Shown here piece by piece: positions 3,444-24,514 of a stretch of 64,000 nt of DNA. Made by a program: the position numbers and the translations under genes. The stretch's first letter is position 1. Every line of letters starts with the position of its first letter. The notes beneath the pieces are model-generated. The model was not told where the DNA came from. It did not search any database and saw only the letters and a program-made list of their open reading frames with translations. The DNA comes from an uncultured delta proteobacterium. GTDB lineage: Bacteria > Myxococcota_A > Polyangia > Polyangiales > Polyangiaceae. Location: assembly GCA_963841435.1 (NCBI GenBank), contig CAWJCS010000004.1:845934-909933 (forward strand). Reading direction: 5' to 3'.

Positions 3444-4190
3444 TCAGTAGGTGCGGATGAGGGCGACGAGACGGCCCTGAACCTTGACCTGCTCGGGGCC
3501 GCAGATGCGGGTCTCGTACTTGGGGTTGGCGGGTTCGAGGGCAATCGAGTTGCCGCGCCGGCGCAGACGCTTCAGCGTCACCTCCTCGTTGTCGACGAGG
3601 GCGACGACGATCGCGCCGTTATCGGCATTGTCGGTGCGCTCGATGATCACCGTATCGCCGTCGAAGATTCCGGCCTCGATCATCGAATCGCCTTCGACCT
3701 CGAGCGCGTAGTGCTCGTTGCGGGAGATCAGCTCCTGCGAGACATCGATACTCCTCGACTGGTCGCGCAGCGCCGTGATCGGCGTTCCGGCGGCGATCTT
3801 CCCGTACAGCGGCAAGGTGACGATGCCCCGCGGCGGCGCCGCTTCCGGTTCCGGCTCGGGCGAGCGGAAATCGTGGCGGATGACGTTCGACGGCAGCCGT
3901 TCCGAGGGCGGGAGAGCCCGGATGCCGCGGTTGCGGCAGAGGCCGGGCCTGTTGCCGGTTCGCTGCCGCCGATGTTGCTCGGCATGCGAATGATTTCGAG
4001 CGCGCGCGCCCGATGCGGCAGGCGGCGGATGAACCCCCGTTCCTCAAGGCCGGTGATCAGCCGATGGATTCCCGACTTTGAGCGCAGCCCGAGCGCCTCC
4101 TTCATCTCGTCGAAGGAGGGTGGCACCCCAGCCTCCTGCAGAGCGCCGACTGATGAACATCAAGAGCTCATGCTGTTTGCGTGTGAGCAT
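3444..4190 (-). CDS. lexA: SOS transcriptional repressor LexA (frameshifted)
   Basis: MLTRKQ start; [44 protein letters not shown]24 domain [23 protein letters not shown]. Confidence 0.95.
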
Positions 4191-4275: not shown

Positions 4276-4315
4276 GAACAAAAACCAAACCGGGCGCAAT
4301 GTTCTATTTTGGTTC
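4276..4315. promoter_or_regulatory. LexA (SOS) operator(s) upstream of lexA
   Basis: GTTC-TATTTTG-GTTC at 4301-4315 matches the alphaproteobacterial GTTC-N7-GTTC box; degenerate GAAC-N7-AAAC at 4276-4290. Confidence 0.85.
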
Positions 4316-10164: not shown

Positions 10165-11546
<1,382 letters not shown>

Positions 11547-11563
11547 ACGAGGGAGCGGATCCC

Positions 11564-14367
<2,804 letters not shown>

Positions 14368-19667: not shown

Positions 19668-19877
19668 TCCTCCATATCGTTGGTTTCGTAAGACTTGTGC
19701 GCAATCGTGTACTGTCTGCGGGAGCCGAGGGCAAGTCCTCCATACCACCTAATGGGGAATGCCGAGGGATCCTTAAGAGCATACGCTGATGCCCGAACGG
19801 CGCCGGGCTGCGCGAGCCGAAATTGCCCGGTCCGCTTGGAGCATGTCGTTGCCCGTAGCGCGGCCGGGGAGCGGGAG

Positions 19878-19953
<76 letters not shown>

Positions 19954-20181
19954 ATCGCCGCGGGTGGGGGCGAGGGGCGATCCGACCCGGCCCACGATGC
20001 GCCGCTTATAACAAGCCGGGCGGCTTTGTGTCCAGCCGCCCCGGCCGCGGCGCGGTCGGCGGCGGTCGGTGAGCACACCGGTCCGGCCGCGTTGCCTTTT
20101 CATGAGAGGACGAGTGCCTTTCGGGCGGTTCGAGATCCGGAGTTTAGGCCTAACCCATTGATGACAAGCCATACCCGCGAA

Positions 20182-20341
20182 GTGCGCGGCGAAAATGTCG
20201 TCATTCGTCGTCATTTGTCGGCAAACGTCGTCATCGGCAGCCGGTGCGCGGCGAAAATGTCGTCATCGAGGCACCCACCGCGGCCCACAATGTCGTCATT
20301 CGTTCGTCAAATGTCGTCATGTGTCGGCACGATGTCGTCAT
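20182..20341. repeat. Helically phased array of GTCGTCAT octamers
   Basis: Exact copies at 20197, 20207, 20227, 20259, 20292, 20313, 20334; variants at 20217, 20303, 20323; 23-bp repeat GTGCGCGGCGAAAATGTCGTCAT at 20182 and 20244. Confidence 0.9.
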
Positions 20342-20397
20342 ACCGGTTCGCCCGCCTGGGATCCGAATCGCCGGACGATTGCTGCGCGCCGGGAATG

Positions 20398-20438
20398 GAA
20401 CATAATACGAACATACGCGAAGCCGCGGCGCCGGTCAA
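20398..20438 (-). promoter_or_regulatory. Putative sigma70 promoter overlapped by a LexA box
   Basis: Minus strand TTGACC-17bp-TATGTT; GAAC-ATAATAC-GAAC at 20398-20412 (GTTC-N7-GTTC on the minus strand) overlaps the -10. Confidence 0.7.
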
Positions 20439-20473
20439 CGCCCCCGCCCGACTGCGCGGAATCGCCAAGACAG

Positions 20474-20929
20474 TTACTTGTCGAAGGTCGTCAGGGGCGC
20501 CCCGTCGTCGGCGACGAACACGGCCAACAGGCTCGCCGGCTCGGTCGCACTCGCGTTCTCGCTGACGAGGTGCTCGCTGCCCGGCGGCTCGAAGAAGCTC
20601 TCGCCGGCGCTATAGACCCGGGCCGGTCCGGTCGCGGAGTTTTCCGAGCGAATTGTTCCCGAGAGCACGTAGGCGAATACGCTTCCGGCGTGGTGGTGCG
20701 CGCTGGAGTGTCCGCCGGGGCCATAGGTGACGACGAGTGCTGTGAGGGTCTTGCCCGGAACGTTCGGCAGTTTCTCCGCGAATGCCTGCTTCACCTCGGC
20801 GCCCGCGCCCTCGGCGGATGCGCTCGACGTGGGGCCGGCCAACACTATTCCGGCCAGTATCACACCGGTCGACAGCAACGCCGCCGCAGCCGGCAAACGG
20901 CGGTGCGTCCGATACCCTTGTCTCATCAT
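20474..20929 (-). CDS. Secreted cupin-domain protein
   Basis: LPNVPGKTLTALVVTYGPGG.S.AHHH; AYVLSG; Y.AGESFFEPPGSEH..SENAS. Confidence 0.85.
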   Translation of the reverse strand: MMRQGYRTHRRLPAAAALLSTGVILAGIVLAGPTSSASAEGAGAEVKQAFAEKLPNVPGKTLTALVVTYGPGGHSSAHHHAGSVFAYVLSGTIRSENSATGPARVYSAGESFFEPPGSEHLVSENASATEPASLLAVFVADDGAPLTTFDK

Positions 20930-21413
20930 TGCGCCCCCCGTTGAGCCTCTTCGGGCGCTCGCGTGGGCAGGTGCCGGCGGATGCACCGAGCGGAAGCCGA
21001 TGGCGATCCGGTTCCAGGCATTGATGGTGCCGATGAGCACCGTCAGCTTGACCAGCTCGTCCTCCGCGAAGTGCCGGCGCGACCTCCTCGAAGACGGCAT
21101 CCGGGGCGTGCGTCTCGGAGATCAGGGTGAGTGCTTCCGTCCAGGCCAGGGCCGCCCGCTCGCGCTCGCTGTAGAGCGGCGATTCTCGCCAGGCGTCGAG
21201 CAGGTACAGGCGTTCCTCCGTCTCGCCGCGGGCGCGGGCGTCGCGCGTATGCATCTGGATGCAGAAGGCGCAGCCGTTGATCTGCGACGCGCGCGTCTTC
21301 ACCAGCTCGATGAGCGACGATTCCAGCCCGCAGTTGCGCACGTGGTTTTCGAGCGCGCCCATCGCCTTCATCGTCTCCGGCGCCGCCTGATAGGGGTTCA
21401 GTCTCGGTTGCAT
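20926..21413 (-). CDS. Carboxymuconolactone decarboxylase / AhpD-like protein (frameshifted)
   Basis: ELVKTRASQINGCAFCIQMH; AWRESPLYSERERAALAWTE; INAWNRIAI. Confidence 0.9.
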
Positions 21414-21467: not shown

Positions 21468-24292
21468 CTAATGCGCGGAGCCCCAGTCGCGGCCGGTGCC
21501 GGTGTCGACGACGAGCGGGACGGAGAGGTCGGCGACCGACTGCATCGTCCGCACCACTACCTCGCGGGTCGGCTCGACCTCGGCGTCCGCCACCTCGAAG
21601 ATCAGCTCGTCATGCACCTGCAAGAGCATTTTTGCAGCGAGCCCGGCCGCTTCGAGCGCCGCCGGCAGCCGGATCATCGCCCGCTTGATGATATCGGCGG
21701 CGCCGCCCTGGATCGGCGCGTTGATCGCCGCCCGTTCGGCAAACGCCGCGCGCCGCCGGGTTCTTGTCGGCGATCCCCTTGCGTATGGCAGCGCCGGCCG
21801 AACAGCGTCGTCACGAACCCCTTCGTCCGGGCGTCGCGCTTGGTCCGTTCCATGTAATCGCGGATGCCGGGGTAGCGGGCGAAGTAGGCGTCGATGTAGG
21901 CGCCGGCTTCGCCGCGGCCGATGCCGAGCTGGCGGGCGAGGCCGAAGGCGGAGATGCCGTAGATGATGCCGAAGTTGATCGCCTTCGCCTTCCTGCGGAC
22001 GAACGGGTCCATGCCCTCGATCGGCACGCCGAACACCTGGCTCGCCGTCATCGCGTGGATGTCGTGGCCGTCGCGGAAGGCGTCCTTGAGCTGGCCGATG
22101 TCGGCGACGTGGGCGAGCAGCCGCAGCTCGATCTGCGAATAGTCGGCACTCAGCAGGACGTGCCCGGCGGGGCGACGAAGGCACTGCGGATCTTCCGTCC
22201 CTCCTCGGTGCGGACGGGGATGTTCTGCAGGTTCGGATCGGACGACGACAGCCGGCCGGTCGACGCCACGGCCTGCTGATAGGAGGTGTGGACGCGGCCC
22301 GTTTGCGGGTCGATCTGGCCGATCAGCGCATCGGCGTAGGTGCGTCTTCAGCTTGGCGAGCTGCCGCCAGTCGAGCACCTTGGCCGGCAGCGGCTGGCCT
22401 TCGAGCGCCAGCAGTTCGAGGATATCGGCGCCGGTGGCATAGGCGCCCGTCTTGCCCTTCCGGCCGACGCCGAGGCCCATCTCGTCGAACAGCACCTCGC
22501 CCAGCTGCTTCGGCGAGCCGATGTTGAAAGGACGGCCGGCAAGGCCGTAGATCTCGCGTTCCAGATCGCCGAGGCGCGCGGCGAAGTCCTCGCTCAGGCG
22601 GTGCAGCGCGTCCCGATCGACGAGGATGCCGTGCGCGCTCCATCGCCGCCAGCACCGGCACCAGCGGCCGCTCCAGCGTCTCGTAGACGGTGACCAGCCG
22701 CTCCGCCAGCAGCCGCGGCTTGAGGGCGGCGTGCAGTGCGAGCGTCACCTCGGCGTCCTCGGCGGCATAGGCGAGGGCCCGGTCGGGCGGCACCCGGTCG
22801 AAGCGGAGCTGCGCCTTGCCGGTGCCGGCGACTTCCGCGTAGCTGATCGTCGTCCGGCCGAGATGCAGGGATGCCAGCTCGTCTATGCCGTGGCCGTGCA
22901 GGCCGCCTTCGAGCACGTAGGACAGCAGCATGGTGTCGTCGAACGGCGCGAGCGCGATGCCGTGGCCGGCGAAGACATGGGCGTCGAACTTGATGTCGTG
23001 GCCGATCTTGAGGACCGAGTGCGTCTTCCAGCAGCGGCTTCAGCAGCTGCAGCGCCCGATCCGGCGTCGAGCTGCGGCAGGACGCGAGCGCCGCCGGCAT
23101 CGGTGTGGGCGAGCGGGATGTAGCACGCCTCGCCGGCAGCAATCGCCAGCGACACGCCGACGAGCGGCCGCCGTAAGCGGGTCGCGCGCCGTCGTCTCGG
23201 TCTCGACGGCGACGCATCCTGCCTCGTGCGCGCGGGCGATCAAGAGGGCGAGTTGGGCCTCCTCGGTGACGAGCGCGTAGGCGGCCGGAGCGGCGGGCGC
23301 CGGCGTCGGCGATGTCGAGGGCGAGCTGGGCCTGCGCCGCCTTCGCCGGCGTGCGACGGCGCCGGGATCGCCGCAGGTCGAGGCGGGCGATCAGCGAGCG
23401 GAACGCCTGCGCCTGCAAGAACGCCTTCAGCGCCGCGCGGTCCGGCTCGCGCTTGGCCAGCGCCGAAAGCGGCTCCGGCACCGCCACGTCGTCGGCGAGC
23501 GTCACCAGCCGCTTCGACAGCCGCGCGTTCTCGGCGTGCGCGATCAGCGCCTCGCGCCGCTTCGGCTGAGCGATCGAGCCGGCGCCGGCGAGCAGCGTCT
23601 CCAGATCGCCGAACTCGCGGATGAGCTGGGCGGCGGTCTTGACGCCGATGCCGGGGACGCCGGGTACGTTGTCGGTCGGATCGCCGGCGAGCGCCTGCAC
23701 GTCGATGACCTTCTCCGGGCCGACACCGAACTTCTCCTCCACCTCGGCGGCGCCGATCGCCCGGTTGTTGACCGGGTCCCACATGCCGACGCCGTCGCCG
23801 ACGAGCTGCATCAGGTCCTTGTCGGACGAGACGATGGTCACCTCGGCGCCGGCCTCGCGGGCGAGGCGCGCGTATGTCGCGATCAGGTCGTCCGCCTCGA
23901 AGCCTTCGGATTCGACGCAGGCGACGTTGAAGGCGCGCACCGCCTCGCGGATCAGCGGGAACTGCGGCACCAGCGCGTCCGGCGGCTCCGGCACGGTTGG
24001 CCTTGTAGGCGGGATAGAGGTCGTCGCGGAAGGTGCGACGGGCGGCATCGAAGACGACGGCGATGTGATCGGCGTCGGTCTCCTTGAGGAGCTTGATCAG
24101 CATCGTGGTGAAGCCGAAGACGGCGTTGACCGGCGTGCCGTCCGGCCGGGTCATCGGCGGCAGCTTGTGGAAGGCGCGGAAGATGAAGCCCGAGCCGTCG
24201 ACCAGATAGACGTGGCGAGGTGCGGGGCGGGAAGGGGCCGCCGACGGCTCGGCCGCCGGCGCGGGCCGGCGGCGGTGCTTCGGCGTCGATCA
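21468..24292 (-). CDS. polA: DNA polymerase I (many frameshifts; start approximate)
   Basis: [77 protein letters not shown]. Confidence 0.96.
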
Positions 24293-24514
24293 GTGGTCGT
24301 CCGCGGCGCCGTCGGCGCCGGTGAAAACGAAGTGCCGCGAGCAGTAGGGGCAGACGACGTCGCCCGCGGCGCCGATCGGCAGATAGACGAGCGGATGCCC
24401 GAGCGCGCCGCCGCCGCCGTCGCAGCCGACCTTGCGCGCATCGACGAAGATCGTCTCGTCATACTCGCTGGCGAGAGCGGGCGTCTCCGGCATCGTCGTC
24501 GTCAGGTCCTGCAT
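24290..24514 (-). CDS. zf-CHCC zinc-finger protein
   Basis: VGCDGGGGALGHPLVYL...VVCPYCSRHF. Confidence 0.85.
   Translation of the reverse strand: MQDLTTTMPETPALASEYDETIFVDARKVGCDGGGGALGHPLVYLPIGAAGDVVCPYCSRHFVFTGADGAADDH

What the first reader, a model, noticed from the sequence alone, without database searches (positions are those of the whole stretch)
20150..20440. SOS-boxed promoter driving a helically phased GTCGTCAT array with no recognisable gene, next to tRNA-Phe
Seen: on the minus strand TTGACC-17bp-TATGTT, with a perfect GTTC-N7-GTTC overlapping the -10 (the same motif lies upstream of lexA at 4301-4315). About 55 bp downstream of the box begins an array of ten GTCGTCAT-type octamers spaced at near multiples of 10-11 bp (20197, 20207, 20217, 20227, 20259, 20292, 20303, 20313, 20323, 20334), including a 23-bp exact duplication. 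The array is followed by TAACCCATTGAT (20151-20162), close to the reverse IHF consensus YAANNNNTTGATW. Known: GTTC-N7-GTTC is the alphaproteobacterial LexA box, and phased repeats with an IHF site typify protein-loading platforms (iterons, centromere-like or recombination sites). Inference: an unannotated DNA-damage-inducible unit, either a repetitive ncRNA, a micropeptide gene or a nucleoprotein site, possibly a dispersed element family.
Basis: partly seen in the sequence, partly recalled or inferred. Interest (0 to 1): 0.8.

Follow-up and report, generated by a model that had tools for sequence, protein, structure and literature searches.

The report
SOS-gated docking array for terminase-like protein
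Ten evenly spaced DNA repeats behind a DNA-damage-controlled promoter are a gene-less copy of a docking site that, in related bacteria, sits at the end of a small phage-terminase-like gene, pointing to an undescribed chromosomal use of a virus DNA-packaging protein.

Summary
In detail: promoter, LexA-type box, ten phased GTCGTCA repeats, the 23-bp duplication and the IHF-consensus site are all at the stated coordinates. It is not an RNA gene, a micropeptide gene or a tRNA leader.

It is one copy of a repeat family found in two alphaproteobacterial families:
- GTCGTCA iterons at 10-11 bp on both sides of an IHF consensus.
- In 15 of 58 copies, a LexA-boxed promoter that always fires into the array.

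In full copies the promoter drives a 124-168 aa protein homologous to the SF6/SPP1 small terminase (HTH plus oligomerisation helix). Its stop codon abuts the first iteron. Paralogues carry different iterons, and their putative recognition helix changes with the iteron. The array is therefore most likely the docking site of a terminase-like ring bent by IHF, like lambda cosB or SPP1 pac.

The window copy has lost the gene. These genes are solitary among housekeeping genes, with no large terminase nearby, so the cellular role is unknown.

The window lies in a chimeric, error-prone contig end, so searches of its "own genome" and "same genus" say nothing about the real host.

Earlier notes of this scan reported the same kind of terminase-like/repeat pairing on other DNA. 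My paper searches found no published description.

The parts
20433..20438 (-). -35 hexamer TTGACC
   Evidence: Promoter scan. The same CTTGAC/GTTGAC element sits at the same place in 15 related copies.
20410..20415 (-). -10 hexamer TATGTT, 17-nt spacer; predicted start about 20403
   Evidence: The start site is inferred, not shown.
20398..20412 (-). LexA-type operator GTTCGTATTATGTTC overlapping the -10
   Evidence: Same motif type upstream of lexA here and in G063, G064 and G066. Motif definition: PMC9578287 Table 1.
20292..20341 (+). Promoter-proximal arm: five iterons (20292, 20303 degenerate, 20313, 20323 degenerate, 20334), spacing 11, 10, 10, 11
   Evidence: The spacing pattern matches the five-iteron arm of the Defluviicoccus copies.
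20244..20266 (+). Second copy of the 23-bp duplication, carrying a single iteron (20259-20265)
20182..20234 (+). R-arm-type block: boundary 'gcggcgaaaat' followed by four iterons at exactly 10 bp (20197, 20207, 20217 degenerate, 20227)
   Evidence: Same boundary and arm as in G064, G065 and metagenome copies.
20151..20162 (+). IHF-consensus site TAACCCATTGAT (YAA-N4-TTGAT), 34 bp from the first iteron
   Evidence: In 17 aligned Defluviicoccus copies only the IHF consensus positions are conserved and the N positions vary. The ~35-bp distance is the same in G064, G065 and G066 copies.
19878..19953 (-). tRNA-Phe: a neighbour, not part of the element; likely own promoter TGGACA-18-TATAAG at 20034-20005
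   Evidence: A tRNA lies near only 2 of 59 other copies. The promoter is my reading.

Best explanation
The feature is a gene-less copy of a chromosomal 'terminase-like protein plus docking array' module.

The full module, in the direction of transcription:
1. A sigma70 promoter with a LexA-type box.
2. [quoted passage not shown]
3. The stop codon, in or next to the first of 2-4 iterons spaced 10 bp apart.
4. About 35 bp of spacer.
5. An IHF-consensus site.
6. A second arm of 5-10 iterons at 11 bp.

Proposed mechanism: the protein forms a ring, as small terminases do. Its DNA-binding domains each dock on one GTCGTCA iteron. Because the iterons lie on one face of the helix and IHF makes a sharp bend, roughly 100-190 bp wraps around the ring, as at lambda cosB (R3-IHF-R2-R1) or SPP1 pac.

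In the window the open reading frame is gone: only 57 bp separate the box from the array. The ten iterons and the IHF site would therefore be served in trans by a protein encoded elsewhere in the unsampled host genome. LexA cleavage after DNA damage would send transcription into the array.

Shown: the anatomy, the family, the gene-array adjacency, and the protein-iteron covariation.
Inferred: binding itself, the ring, the IHF bend, SOS induction, and any downstream role such as packaging or other.
For: 1. Family.
- GTCGTCANNNGTCGTCA (up to 1 mismatch) occurs 68, 32, 65 and 26 times in four alphaproteobacterial genomes. The reversed-pattern control gives 0-4.
- All copies inspected share the layout iteron arm, IHF consensus, iteron arm.
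- In 17 Defluviicoccus copies the iteron columns carry 1.85 bits against 0.86 bits elsewhere.

2. Promoter.
- A LexA-type box plus GTCAA lies on one side only and always points inward in 15 of 58 copies, against 0 of 58 in each of two controls.
- Two spacing classes both give TTGAC-17-(-10) with the box over the -10.

3. Gene.
- A Pfam scan of 113 flanking ORFs found Terminase_2 in 3 G064 loci, lying exactly between box and array, with the stop codon at the first iteron.
- All 6 of 6 proteins tested hit phrog_51 'terminase small subunit', E 7e-13 to 7e-17.
- A profile of 7 proteins hits PDB 3zqp/3zqq 'terminase small subunit' at E 2.3e-11 over DNA-binding domain plus core.

4. Generality.
- Of 30 such genes in the G064 family, 12 are followed by 3 or more phased 7-mers. 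Controls: 0 of 29 upstream and 0 of 28 far downstream.
- The strict IHF 13-mer occurs in 5 of 30, against 0 and 0.

5. Covariation.
- The iteron differs by paralogue: GACGAC, GCGTAC, TGTCTAC, TGACATT, CACAAAA, AATGACC.
- The segment after AGY reads [KR]N.GYRL in 9 of 9 proteins tied to GACGAC/GTCGTCA iterons and in 0 of 18 others (24 of the 30 loci plus 3 G063-family proteins were used).

6. Co-occurrence in the G063 family (41 genomes).
- All 12 genomes with 3 or more double iterons have the gene.
- The 12 genomes without the gene have 0 hits (11 genomes) or 2 hits (1 genome).

7. Precedents.
- Lambda cosB has TerS sites R3, R2, R1 plus an IHF site (PMC4856287, passage and reference list).
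- A TerS ring of 8-11 subunits is proposed to wrap about 100 bp (PMC6854486, passage).
- The SaPI terS lies in a LexA-regulated operon (PMC3152322, passage).
Against: - No terminase-like gene is in the window or anywhere in the assembly held. Only about 100 kb of the true host is present.
- The window copy is rearranged: no iteron arm on the far side of the IHF site, a 23-bp duplication, and 3 of 10 iterons degenerate.
- In the G063 family the single terminase-like gene has no array behind it. There the link rests on co-occurrence and helix similarity alone.
- 11 of 29 gene-positive genomes in that family have no GTCGTCA double iteron.
- Only 12 of 30 genes pass the strict phased-repeat test.
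- The LexA-type promoter is present in 15 of 58 copies and in 0 of 18 Defluviicoccus copies.
- In the intact G064 genes the box lies upstream of the -35 and has a G+C-rich spacer.
- No large terminase was found in G064 or G066 with three Pfam families, and none next to any of the genes. The C-terminal tails are unconserved. A packaging role is therefore unsupported.
- There are no binding, expression or structural data. Co-occurrence was not corrected for phylogeny.
Confidence: 0.68

Rival explanations
1. Dead relic. The window copy is a decaying remnant of a module whose gene was deleted. Nothing binds it any more and the promoter fires into nothing useful.
For: - The copy is rearranged and has no open reading frame.
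- At the pckA locus one relative (G542) holds a decayed remnant with one iteron and a degenerate box, and three others hold nothing.
- Distribution within a family is patchy.
Against: - Seven of ten iterons, both promoter hexamers, the LexA box and the IHF consensus are all intact.
- Gene-less copies far outnumber intact genes: at least 18 arrays to 1 gene in Defluviicoccus.
- Those copies keep motif columns while spacers drift, which suggests selection on the sites.
Confidence: 0.2
2. SOS-induced non-coding RNA whose repeated UGACGAC motifs act as a sponge for a protein or RNA.
For: - There is a good promoter with a LexA-type box and no ORF behind it.
- Transcription must enter the array, both here and in full copies.
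Against: - No Rfam family matches.
- The fold is no better than shuffles, z = +1.07.
- The only terminator-like hairpin in 19700-20700 lies ~110 bp beyond the IHF site, has a T-poor tail and overlaps the likely tRNA-Phe promoter.
- The conserved core matches the IHF DNA consensus with free N positions.
- 43 of 58 copies lack this promoter.
- The iterons co-vary with a DNA-binding helix.
Confidence: 0.05
3. Plasmid-type or phage-type replication origin, centromere (parC/parS-like), or integrase arm-site region left by an element integrated at tRNA-Phe.
For: - Phased iterons with an IHF site are the common anatomy of such sites (recalled: pSC101 ori, P1 parS, R1 parC, lambda attP).
- A tRNA gene lies 200 bp away.
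Against: - No rep, par, integrase or transposase gene lies beside this copy or recurrently beside the copies checked: (one copy, L144, has an IS110-family transposase in its flank and L156 an IS91 zinc-finger domain).
- There is no plasmid match.
- A tRNA lies near only 2 of 59 other copies.
- There are no inverted terminal repeats.
- The gene that does pair with the arrays is terminase-like.
Confidence: 0.04
4. Micropeptide gene, or SOS-controlled leader of tRNA-Phe.
For: - Short ORFs start at the repeated ATGACGAC.
- tRNA-Phe lies downstream on the same strand.
Against: - ORFs crossing the array have no Pfam match.
- Their peptides are not conserved between copies.
- The tRNA has its own promoter-like site (my reading).
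- Downstream genes differ from copy to copy.
Confidence: 0.03

Closest known systems
SPP1/SF6 pac site with small terminase G1P (Bacillus phages)
   Same: - The protein is homologous: Pfam Terminase_2, phrog_51, and PDB 3zqp/3zqq and 2cmp.
- Short repeated boxes lie beside the terS gene, and a ring protein is thought to wrap bent DNA (PMC6854486 passages; box layout recalled).
   Different: - The gene is solitary in the chromosome among housekeeping genes, with no terL, portal or capsid genes nearby.
- The C-terminal tail is unconserved.
- The array lies after the stop codon.
- There are many gene-less copies, and a LexA-type promoter.
Lambda cosB (R3, IHF site I1, R2, R1) bound by gpNu1
   Same: TerS-binding repeats on both sides of an IHF site that bends the DNA (PMC4856287, passage and reference list).
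   Different: - gpNu1 is a dimeric winged-helix protein of another family.
- Lambda has three 16-bp sites rather than about ten 7-bp iterons.
- cosB is a single site in a phage genome, next to cosN.
SaPI operon I (LexA-regulated, encodes the island's own terS)
   Same: A chromosomal terS under LexA control, outside a complete phage (PMC3152322, passage).
   Different: - SaPIs are 15-kb mobile islands with integrase, replication and capsid-remodelling genes.
- Here the unit is under 1 kb, sits at conserved housekeeping loci, and mostly lacks the gene.
RcGTA small terminase gp1
   Same: A domesticated terminase subunit in Alphaproteobacteria.
   Different: - gp1 lacks the N-terminal DNA-binding domain and no binding sites are known for it (PMC6854486 passages).
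- The proteins here keep that domain and have cognate arrays.
- No terL was found in G064 or G066.
IHF-containing dispersed repeats of E. coli (RIP/BIME-type; recalled, not checked in a paper here)
   Same: Multi-copy intergenic elements with a central IHF consensus.
   Different: - Those are flanked by palindromic REP units and have no cognate adjacent gene.
- Here the flanks are direct, phased iterons tied to a terminase-like protein.

Membership tests
Alphaproteobacterial LexA operator | Direct repeat GTTC-N7-GTTC | tested here: met
   GTTCGTATTATGTTC at 20398-20412. Motif as in PMC9578287 Table 1.
Alphaproteobacterial LexA operator | Placed over core promoter elements, and the same motif at the host's lexA | tested here: met
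   The box overlaps the -10. The lexA upstream box is at 4301-4315. These two are the only boxes with 6 of 7 A/T in the spacer among 178 in the assembly.
Alphaproteobacterial LexA operator | LexA binding and induction by DNA damage | not testable with these tools
   No RNA holder was listed. An EMSA is needed.
Small-terminase recognition site (pac/cosB type) | Cognate terS gene next to the site | tested here: not met
   Not met in the window: only 57 bp between box and array, and no homologue in the assembly. Met in relatives: L137, L214, L215 and 12 of 30 genes of the G064 family.
Small-terminase recognition site (pac/cosB type) | Several phased copies of a short box, with a bend or IHF site | tested here: met
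   Ten units at multiples of 10-11 bp plus the IHF consensus.
Small-terminase recognition site (pac/cosB type) | Site specificity follows the protein | tested here: met
   Iteron type co-varies with the putative recognition helix: 9 of 9 against 0 of 18. This was shown in relatives, not for the window's host.
Small-terminase recognition site (pac/cosB type) | Large terminase partner, cleavage site and packaging into capsids | tested here: not met
   No terL next to any of the genes. None in G064 or G066 with PF03237, PF03354 or PF04466. Packaging itself is not testable here.
SF6/SPP1 G1P-type small terminase (the protein, in relatives) | N-terminal HTH domain plus oligomerisation core | tested here: met
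   Profile against PDB 3zqp: E 2.3e-11, query positions 14-123 to chain positions 21-131. Pfam and PHROG hits.
Iteron replication origin or plasmid centromere | Adjacent rep or par gene | tested here: not met
   Flanking genes are cupin, CMD and polA on one side and tRNA-Phe and an sCache protein on the other. There is no plasmid match.
MITE | Terminal inverted repeats and target-site duplication | tested here: not met
   Zero inverted-repeat pairs in 20100-20480. Aligned copies end at iterons with no inverted repeats.
Known RNA family | Rfam covariance-model match or a stable conserved fold | tested here: not met
   Only tRNA matched. Fold z = +1.07.

The most novel reading that the evidence does not exclude
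Dispersed iteron-IHF arrays could be chromosomal 'pac beacons'. After DNA damage, LexA release lets a domesticated small-terminase-like ring load at one to thirty chromosomal sites. There it would recruit, or decoy, the large terminase of an induced prophage, an infecting phage or a gene transfer agent. Packaging would then start on host DNA. The outcome would be either host-controlled lateral transduction from defined sites or an anti-phage packaging diversion. Paralogues with different iterons would give separate addressing channels within one genome.
Probability: 0.15. Interest if true: 0.9.

Novelty: new variant of a known kind. Interest (0 to 1): 0.7.

Why it matters
Small terminases are known as phage, satellite and GTA proteins that mark DNA for packaging. 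Here homologues that keep the DNA-binding domain sit alone at conserved housekeeping loci. Each has its own co-varying, IHF-bent iteron array. In some genomes there are dozens of gene-less arrays, and some arrays lie behind SOS-controlled promoters.

If the arrays are bound as proposed, this is a compact natural set of orthogonal protein-DNA address pairs. It would also be a new, possibly DNA-damage-gated, chromosomal function for a virus packaging protein. Candidate functions are directed transduction, anti-phage decoy, or chromosome handling. All three are directly testable by ChIP-seq and by sequencing capsid-packaged DNA.

For annotation, it explains a class of puzzling phased repeat arrays in Alphaproteobacteria.

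Tried and rejected
- Own-genome and same-genus searches found no second copy. I set them aside because the contig is chimeric, so they do not sample the true host.
- Rfam and RNA folding: nothing.
- Pfam on seven ORFs crossing the array: nothing.
- Plasmid blastn with three queries: no match.
- Viral-contig scan for three iterons at 10 bp: 13 loci of very different G+C, none with the IHF architecture. Judged unrelated or uninformative.
- Sequencing runs: one DNA run holding 5% of the words, and no RNA holder listed.
- tRNA adjacency as a family trait: 2 of 59 loci. Rejected.
- A conserved 'LFDIVN' peptide in G064 short copies: equally explained by a TTGAC-N3-GTGAA palindrome or a leftover promoter/5'UTR. 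Not pursued.
- Integron attC or cassette idea, raised by toxin-antitoxin pairs and a duplicated segment around hicBA: core-site motifs do not fit, and homologous recombination explains the duplication.
- The palindrome ATAGG-N8-CCTAT beside Defluviicoccus arrays and upstream of that genome's terminase-like gene: operator or hairpin, undecided.
- All-against-all blastp of flanking ORFs: no recurrent family other than element translations and one segmental repeat.
- PADLOC and NCBIfam on the proteins: no hit.
- Empty-site search at the pckA locus: the flanks on one side are not conserved, so boundaries could not be fixed.
- Literature: no description of this element or of orphan terminase-like genes with arrays was found in the library searched.

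Full report
**What is in the window.**
- Seven exact GTCGTCAT lie between 20197 and 20341. The whole window has 15; shuffles gave a mean of 2.59 and a maximum of 7.
- Three degenerate copies sit in register, giving ten units at spacings 10, 10, 10, 32, 33, 11, 10, 10, 11.
- The exact 23-bp duplication is at 20182-20204 and 20244-20266.
- TAACCCATTGAT is at 20151-20162.
- On the minus strand, TTGACC-17-TATGTT is the only sigma70-like match in 1 kb.
- GTTCGTATTATGTTC lies over the -10.
- Of 178 perfect GTTC-N7-GTTC in the assembly, only lexA's box and this one have 6 of 7 A/T in the spacer.
- ORFs that cross the array have no Pfam match. Rfam finds only the tRNA. The putative transcript folds no better than shuffles, z = +1.07.

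**A warning about the source.**
- Tetranucleotide composition switches at about 810 kb of contig C4.
- The last ~100 kb, which holds the window, carries an alphaproteobacterial lexA with GTTC boxes. Its pdh and polA genes and lexA itself are broken by frameshifts.
- The rest of the assembly has its own MoaC and two recA genes without such boxes.
- MoaC of the window is only ~50% identical to 'same-genus' genomes.
- The contig is therefore a chimera or carries a foreign end. My early negative results in the own genome and genus say nothing about the real host.
- PolA places that host nearest to, but far from, Defluviicoccus: 67% identity, the best match in the 365 of 401 sampled Alphaproteobacteria that matched (the sample includes two unpublished genomes, G306 and G106, used only as rows).

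**The family.**
- A scan of one genome per species for two ATGTCGTCAT within 5-30 bp led to loci in Defluviicoccus (G063), a Thalassospiraceae MAG (G064) and two Rhodospirillales genomes (G065, G066). All show the same anatomy.
- The double iteron occurs 68, 32, 65 and 26 times in these genomes, against 0-4 for the reversed pattern.
- Eighteen Defluviicoccus loci were fetched; 17 were aligned, and one of a duplicated pair (L175) was left out. They read: three iterons, YAA-N4-TTGATTT, one inverted plus one direct iterons, then five iterons.
- Iteron columns carry 1.85 bits against 0.86 elsewhere. In the central site only the IHF consensus positions are conserved.
- G064, G065 and metagenome copies read: long arm at 11 bp, IHF consensus, ~35 bp ending in 'ggcgaaaat', then 2-4 iterons at 10 bp.
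- The window has that IHF site, the 34-bp spacer with the same boundary and a four-iteron arm. It lacks the far arm, and carries a duplication and a second five-iteron arm.
- Distribution is narrow and patchy. In the G063 family, 6 of 41 genomes have 9 or more hits and 22 have none. None of 400 other sampled Alphaproteobacteria has three iterons in a row.

**The box-plus-array arrangement is conserved.**
- A LexA-type box (up to 1 mismatch, A/T-rich spacer) followed by GTCAA lies within 450 bp of the short arm and points inward in these proportions: 8 of 14 G064 copies, 4 of 6 G066, 1 of 15 G065, 1 of 4 metagenome copies, the window, and 0 of 18 G063 copies.
- That totals 15 of 58, against 0 of 58 on the other flank and 0 of 58 in the reverse orientation.
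- Two spacing classes both give TTGAC-17-(-10) with the box over the -10.
- The lexA genes of G063, G064 and G066 carry the same motif type.
- A tRNA is near only 2 of 59 other copies.

**The missing gene.**
- A Pfam scan of 113 flanking ORFs found Terminase_2 in three G064 loci.
- In each, the 136-157 aa gene lies exactly between the box and the short arm and reads toward it. It ends in or 4 nt before the first iteron.
- All six homologues tested hit phrog_51 'terminase small subunit'.
- A seven-sequence profile hits the solved small terminase 3zqp/3zqq at E 2.3e-11, across the DNA-binding domain and the oligomerisation core.
- Each array-bearing genome has the gene: four copies in G064 and one each in G063, G065 and G066. 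None was found in the assembly that holds the window.

**The link is general and specific.**
- In the G064 family 14 of 41 genomes carry 1-4 copies.
- Of 30 genes, 12 are followed by three or more phased 7-mers, against 0 of 29 upstream and 0 of 28 far-downstream controls. A strict IHF 13-mer follows 5 of 30, against 0 and 0.
- The iteron differs between paralogues.
- The segment after the conserved AGY, where the SF6 protein has its recognition helix (position recalled), reads [KR]N.GYRL in all six GACGAC-type proteins. The three G063-family proteins, whose genomes hold GTCGTCA arrays in trans, read the same. None of 18 others does.
- That comparison is. Six of the 30 loci (L283, L305, L287, L298, L288, L300) were left out because they had no iteron label.
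- In the G063 family all 12 genomes with three or more double iterons have the gene, and the 12 without the gene have 0 or 2 hits. However, 11 gene-positive genomes have none (not corrected for phylogeny).

**What it is not.**
- The genes are solitary among housekeeping genes. Examples are beside DAHP synthase in three genomes and upstream of polA in two.
- None is next to a large terminase, portal or capsid gene.
- G064 and G066 show no large terminase with three Pfam families.
- The C-terminal tails are unconserved.
- There is no PADLOC or NCBIfam hit.
- A capsid-packaging role is therefore an analogy, not a finding.

**Comparison with the known.**
- The nearest systems are SPP1/SF6 pac with G1P, and lambda cosB with its R sites and IHF site (PMC4856287, passage).
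- A TerS ring of 8-11 subunits is proposed to wrap ~100 bp (PMC6854486, passage). That fits about ten phased iterons, but this is inference.
- A LexA-controlled chromosomal terS is known from SaPI operon I (PMC3152322, passage).
- The RcGTA small terminase lacks the DNA-binding domain that these proteins keep.
- Five paper searches found no description of this element.
- Earlier AI notes of this scan, seen after my own result, report terminase-like genes capped by 10-bp repeats in sponge alphaproteobacteria and in Chloroflexota.

**Verdict.** The window holds a gene-less, SOS-promoter-bearing copy of a terminase-like docking array. Binding, SOS induction and cellular role remain to be shown.

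Noticed in passing
G000 contig C4, about 810,000 to 909,933 (window = 845,934-909,933): Tetranucleotide composition switches sharply at about 810 kb. The terminal ~100 kb is alphaproteobacterial and full of frameshifts, while the rest of the assembly is another lineage. This is probably a chimeric join of a low-coverage organism.
   Followed up: partly
window 3444-4150 (lexA), 11111-12370 (pdhB/pdhC fused ORF), 20474-21413 (CMD/cupin), 21468-24300 (polA): Several core genes are split or fused by single frameshifts, consistent with unpolished long-read sequence. Coordinates of short spacings in this window should be treated with care.
   Followed up: no
L223 (G065:C82:21200-23800), minus orientation 700-2000: A hicBA toxin-antitoxin pair is flanked by two ~190-bp near-identical copies of the segment 'short arm to CAACCCGCC...GGCGGCTTGAC palindrome'. 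Other G065/G064 copies also have toxin-antitoxin pairs on that side (L224 hicBA, L225 phd/PIN, L143 hicB, L141 higBA).
   Followed up: partly
L137, L214, L215, L267 (G064), 5' of the terminase-like genes: A ~16-bp inverted repeat places the ATG of the terminase-like gene inside a hairpin, and a conserved box GAACGRAKWGGGAAC abuts the -35. This suggests translational as well as transcriptional control.
   Followed up: no
L153 (G064), L238 (metagenome), L283 (G510), L305 (G509); window 21468-24300: The module, with or without its gene, sits directly upstream of polA in four relatives. In the window polA lies 1 kb upstream on the same strand. This may be coincidence or an old linkage.
   Followed up: no
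L086 (Sphingobium MAG contig, 2200-2800): A phage-like locus has GTCGTCA arrays in both orientations around an AT-rich stretch, between a GIY-YIG endonuclease gene and a DUF3987 gene. An Sf6-type small-terminase-like gene lies 1.4 kb away.
   Followed up: no
L185-L197 (viral contigs): Arrays of three to many GTCGTCA at a 10-bp period occur in viral contigs of 40-71% G+C, for example directly upstream of an excisionase-like gene in L188. None has the IHF architecture.
   Followed up: partly
L169, L171, L172, L174, L176 (G063), and L262 upstream of the terminase-like gene: The palindrome ATAGG-N8-CCTAT next to GTCAAC/GTTGAC lies ~75 bp from several Defluviicoccus arrays. It also lies just upstream of that genome's single terminase-like gene. 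It could be an operator or a hairpin; this is undecided.
   Followed up: partly
window 20041-20005, minus strand: A terminator-like hairpin, GGGCGGC...GCCGCCC, overlaps a likely tRNA-Phe promoter TGGACA-18-TATAAG.
   Followed up: no
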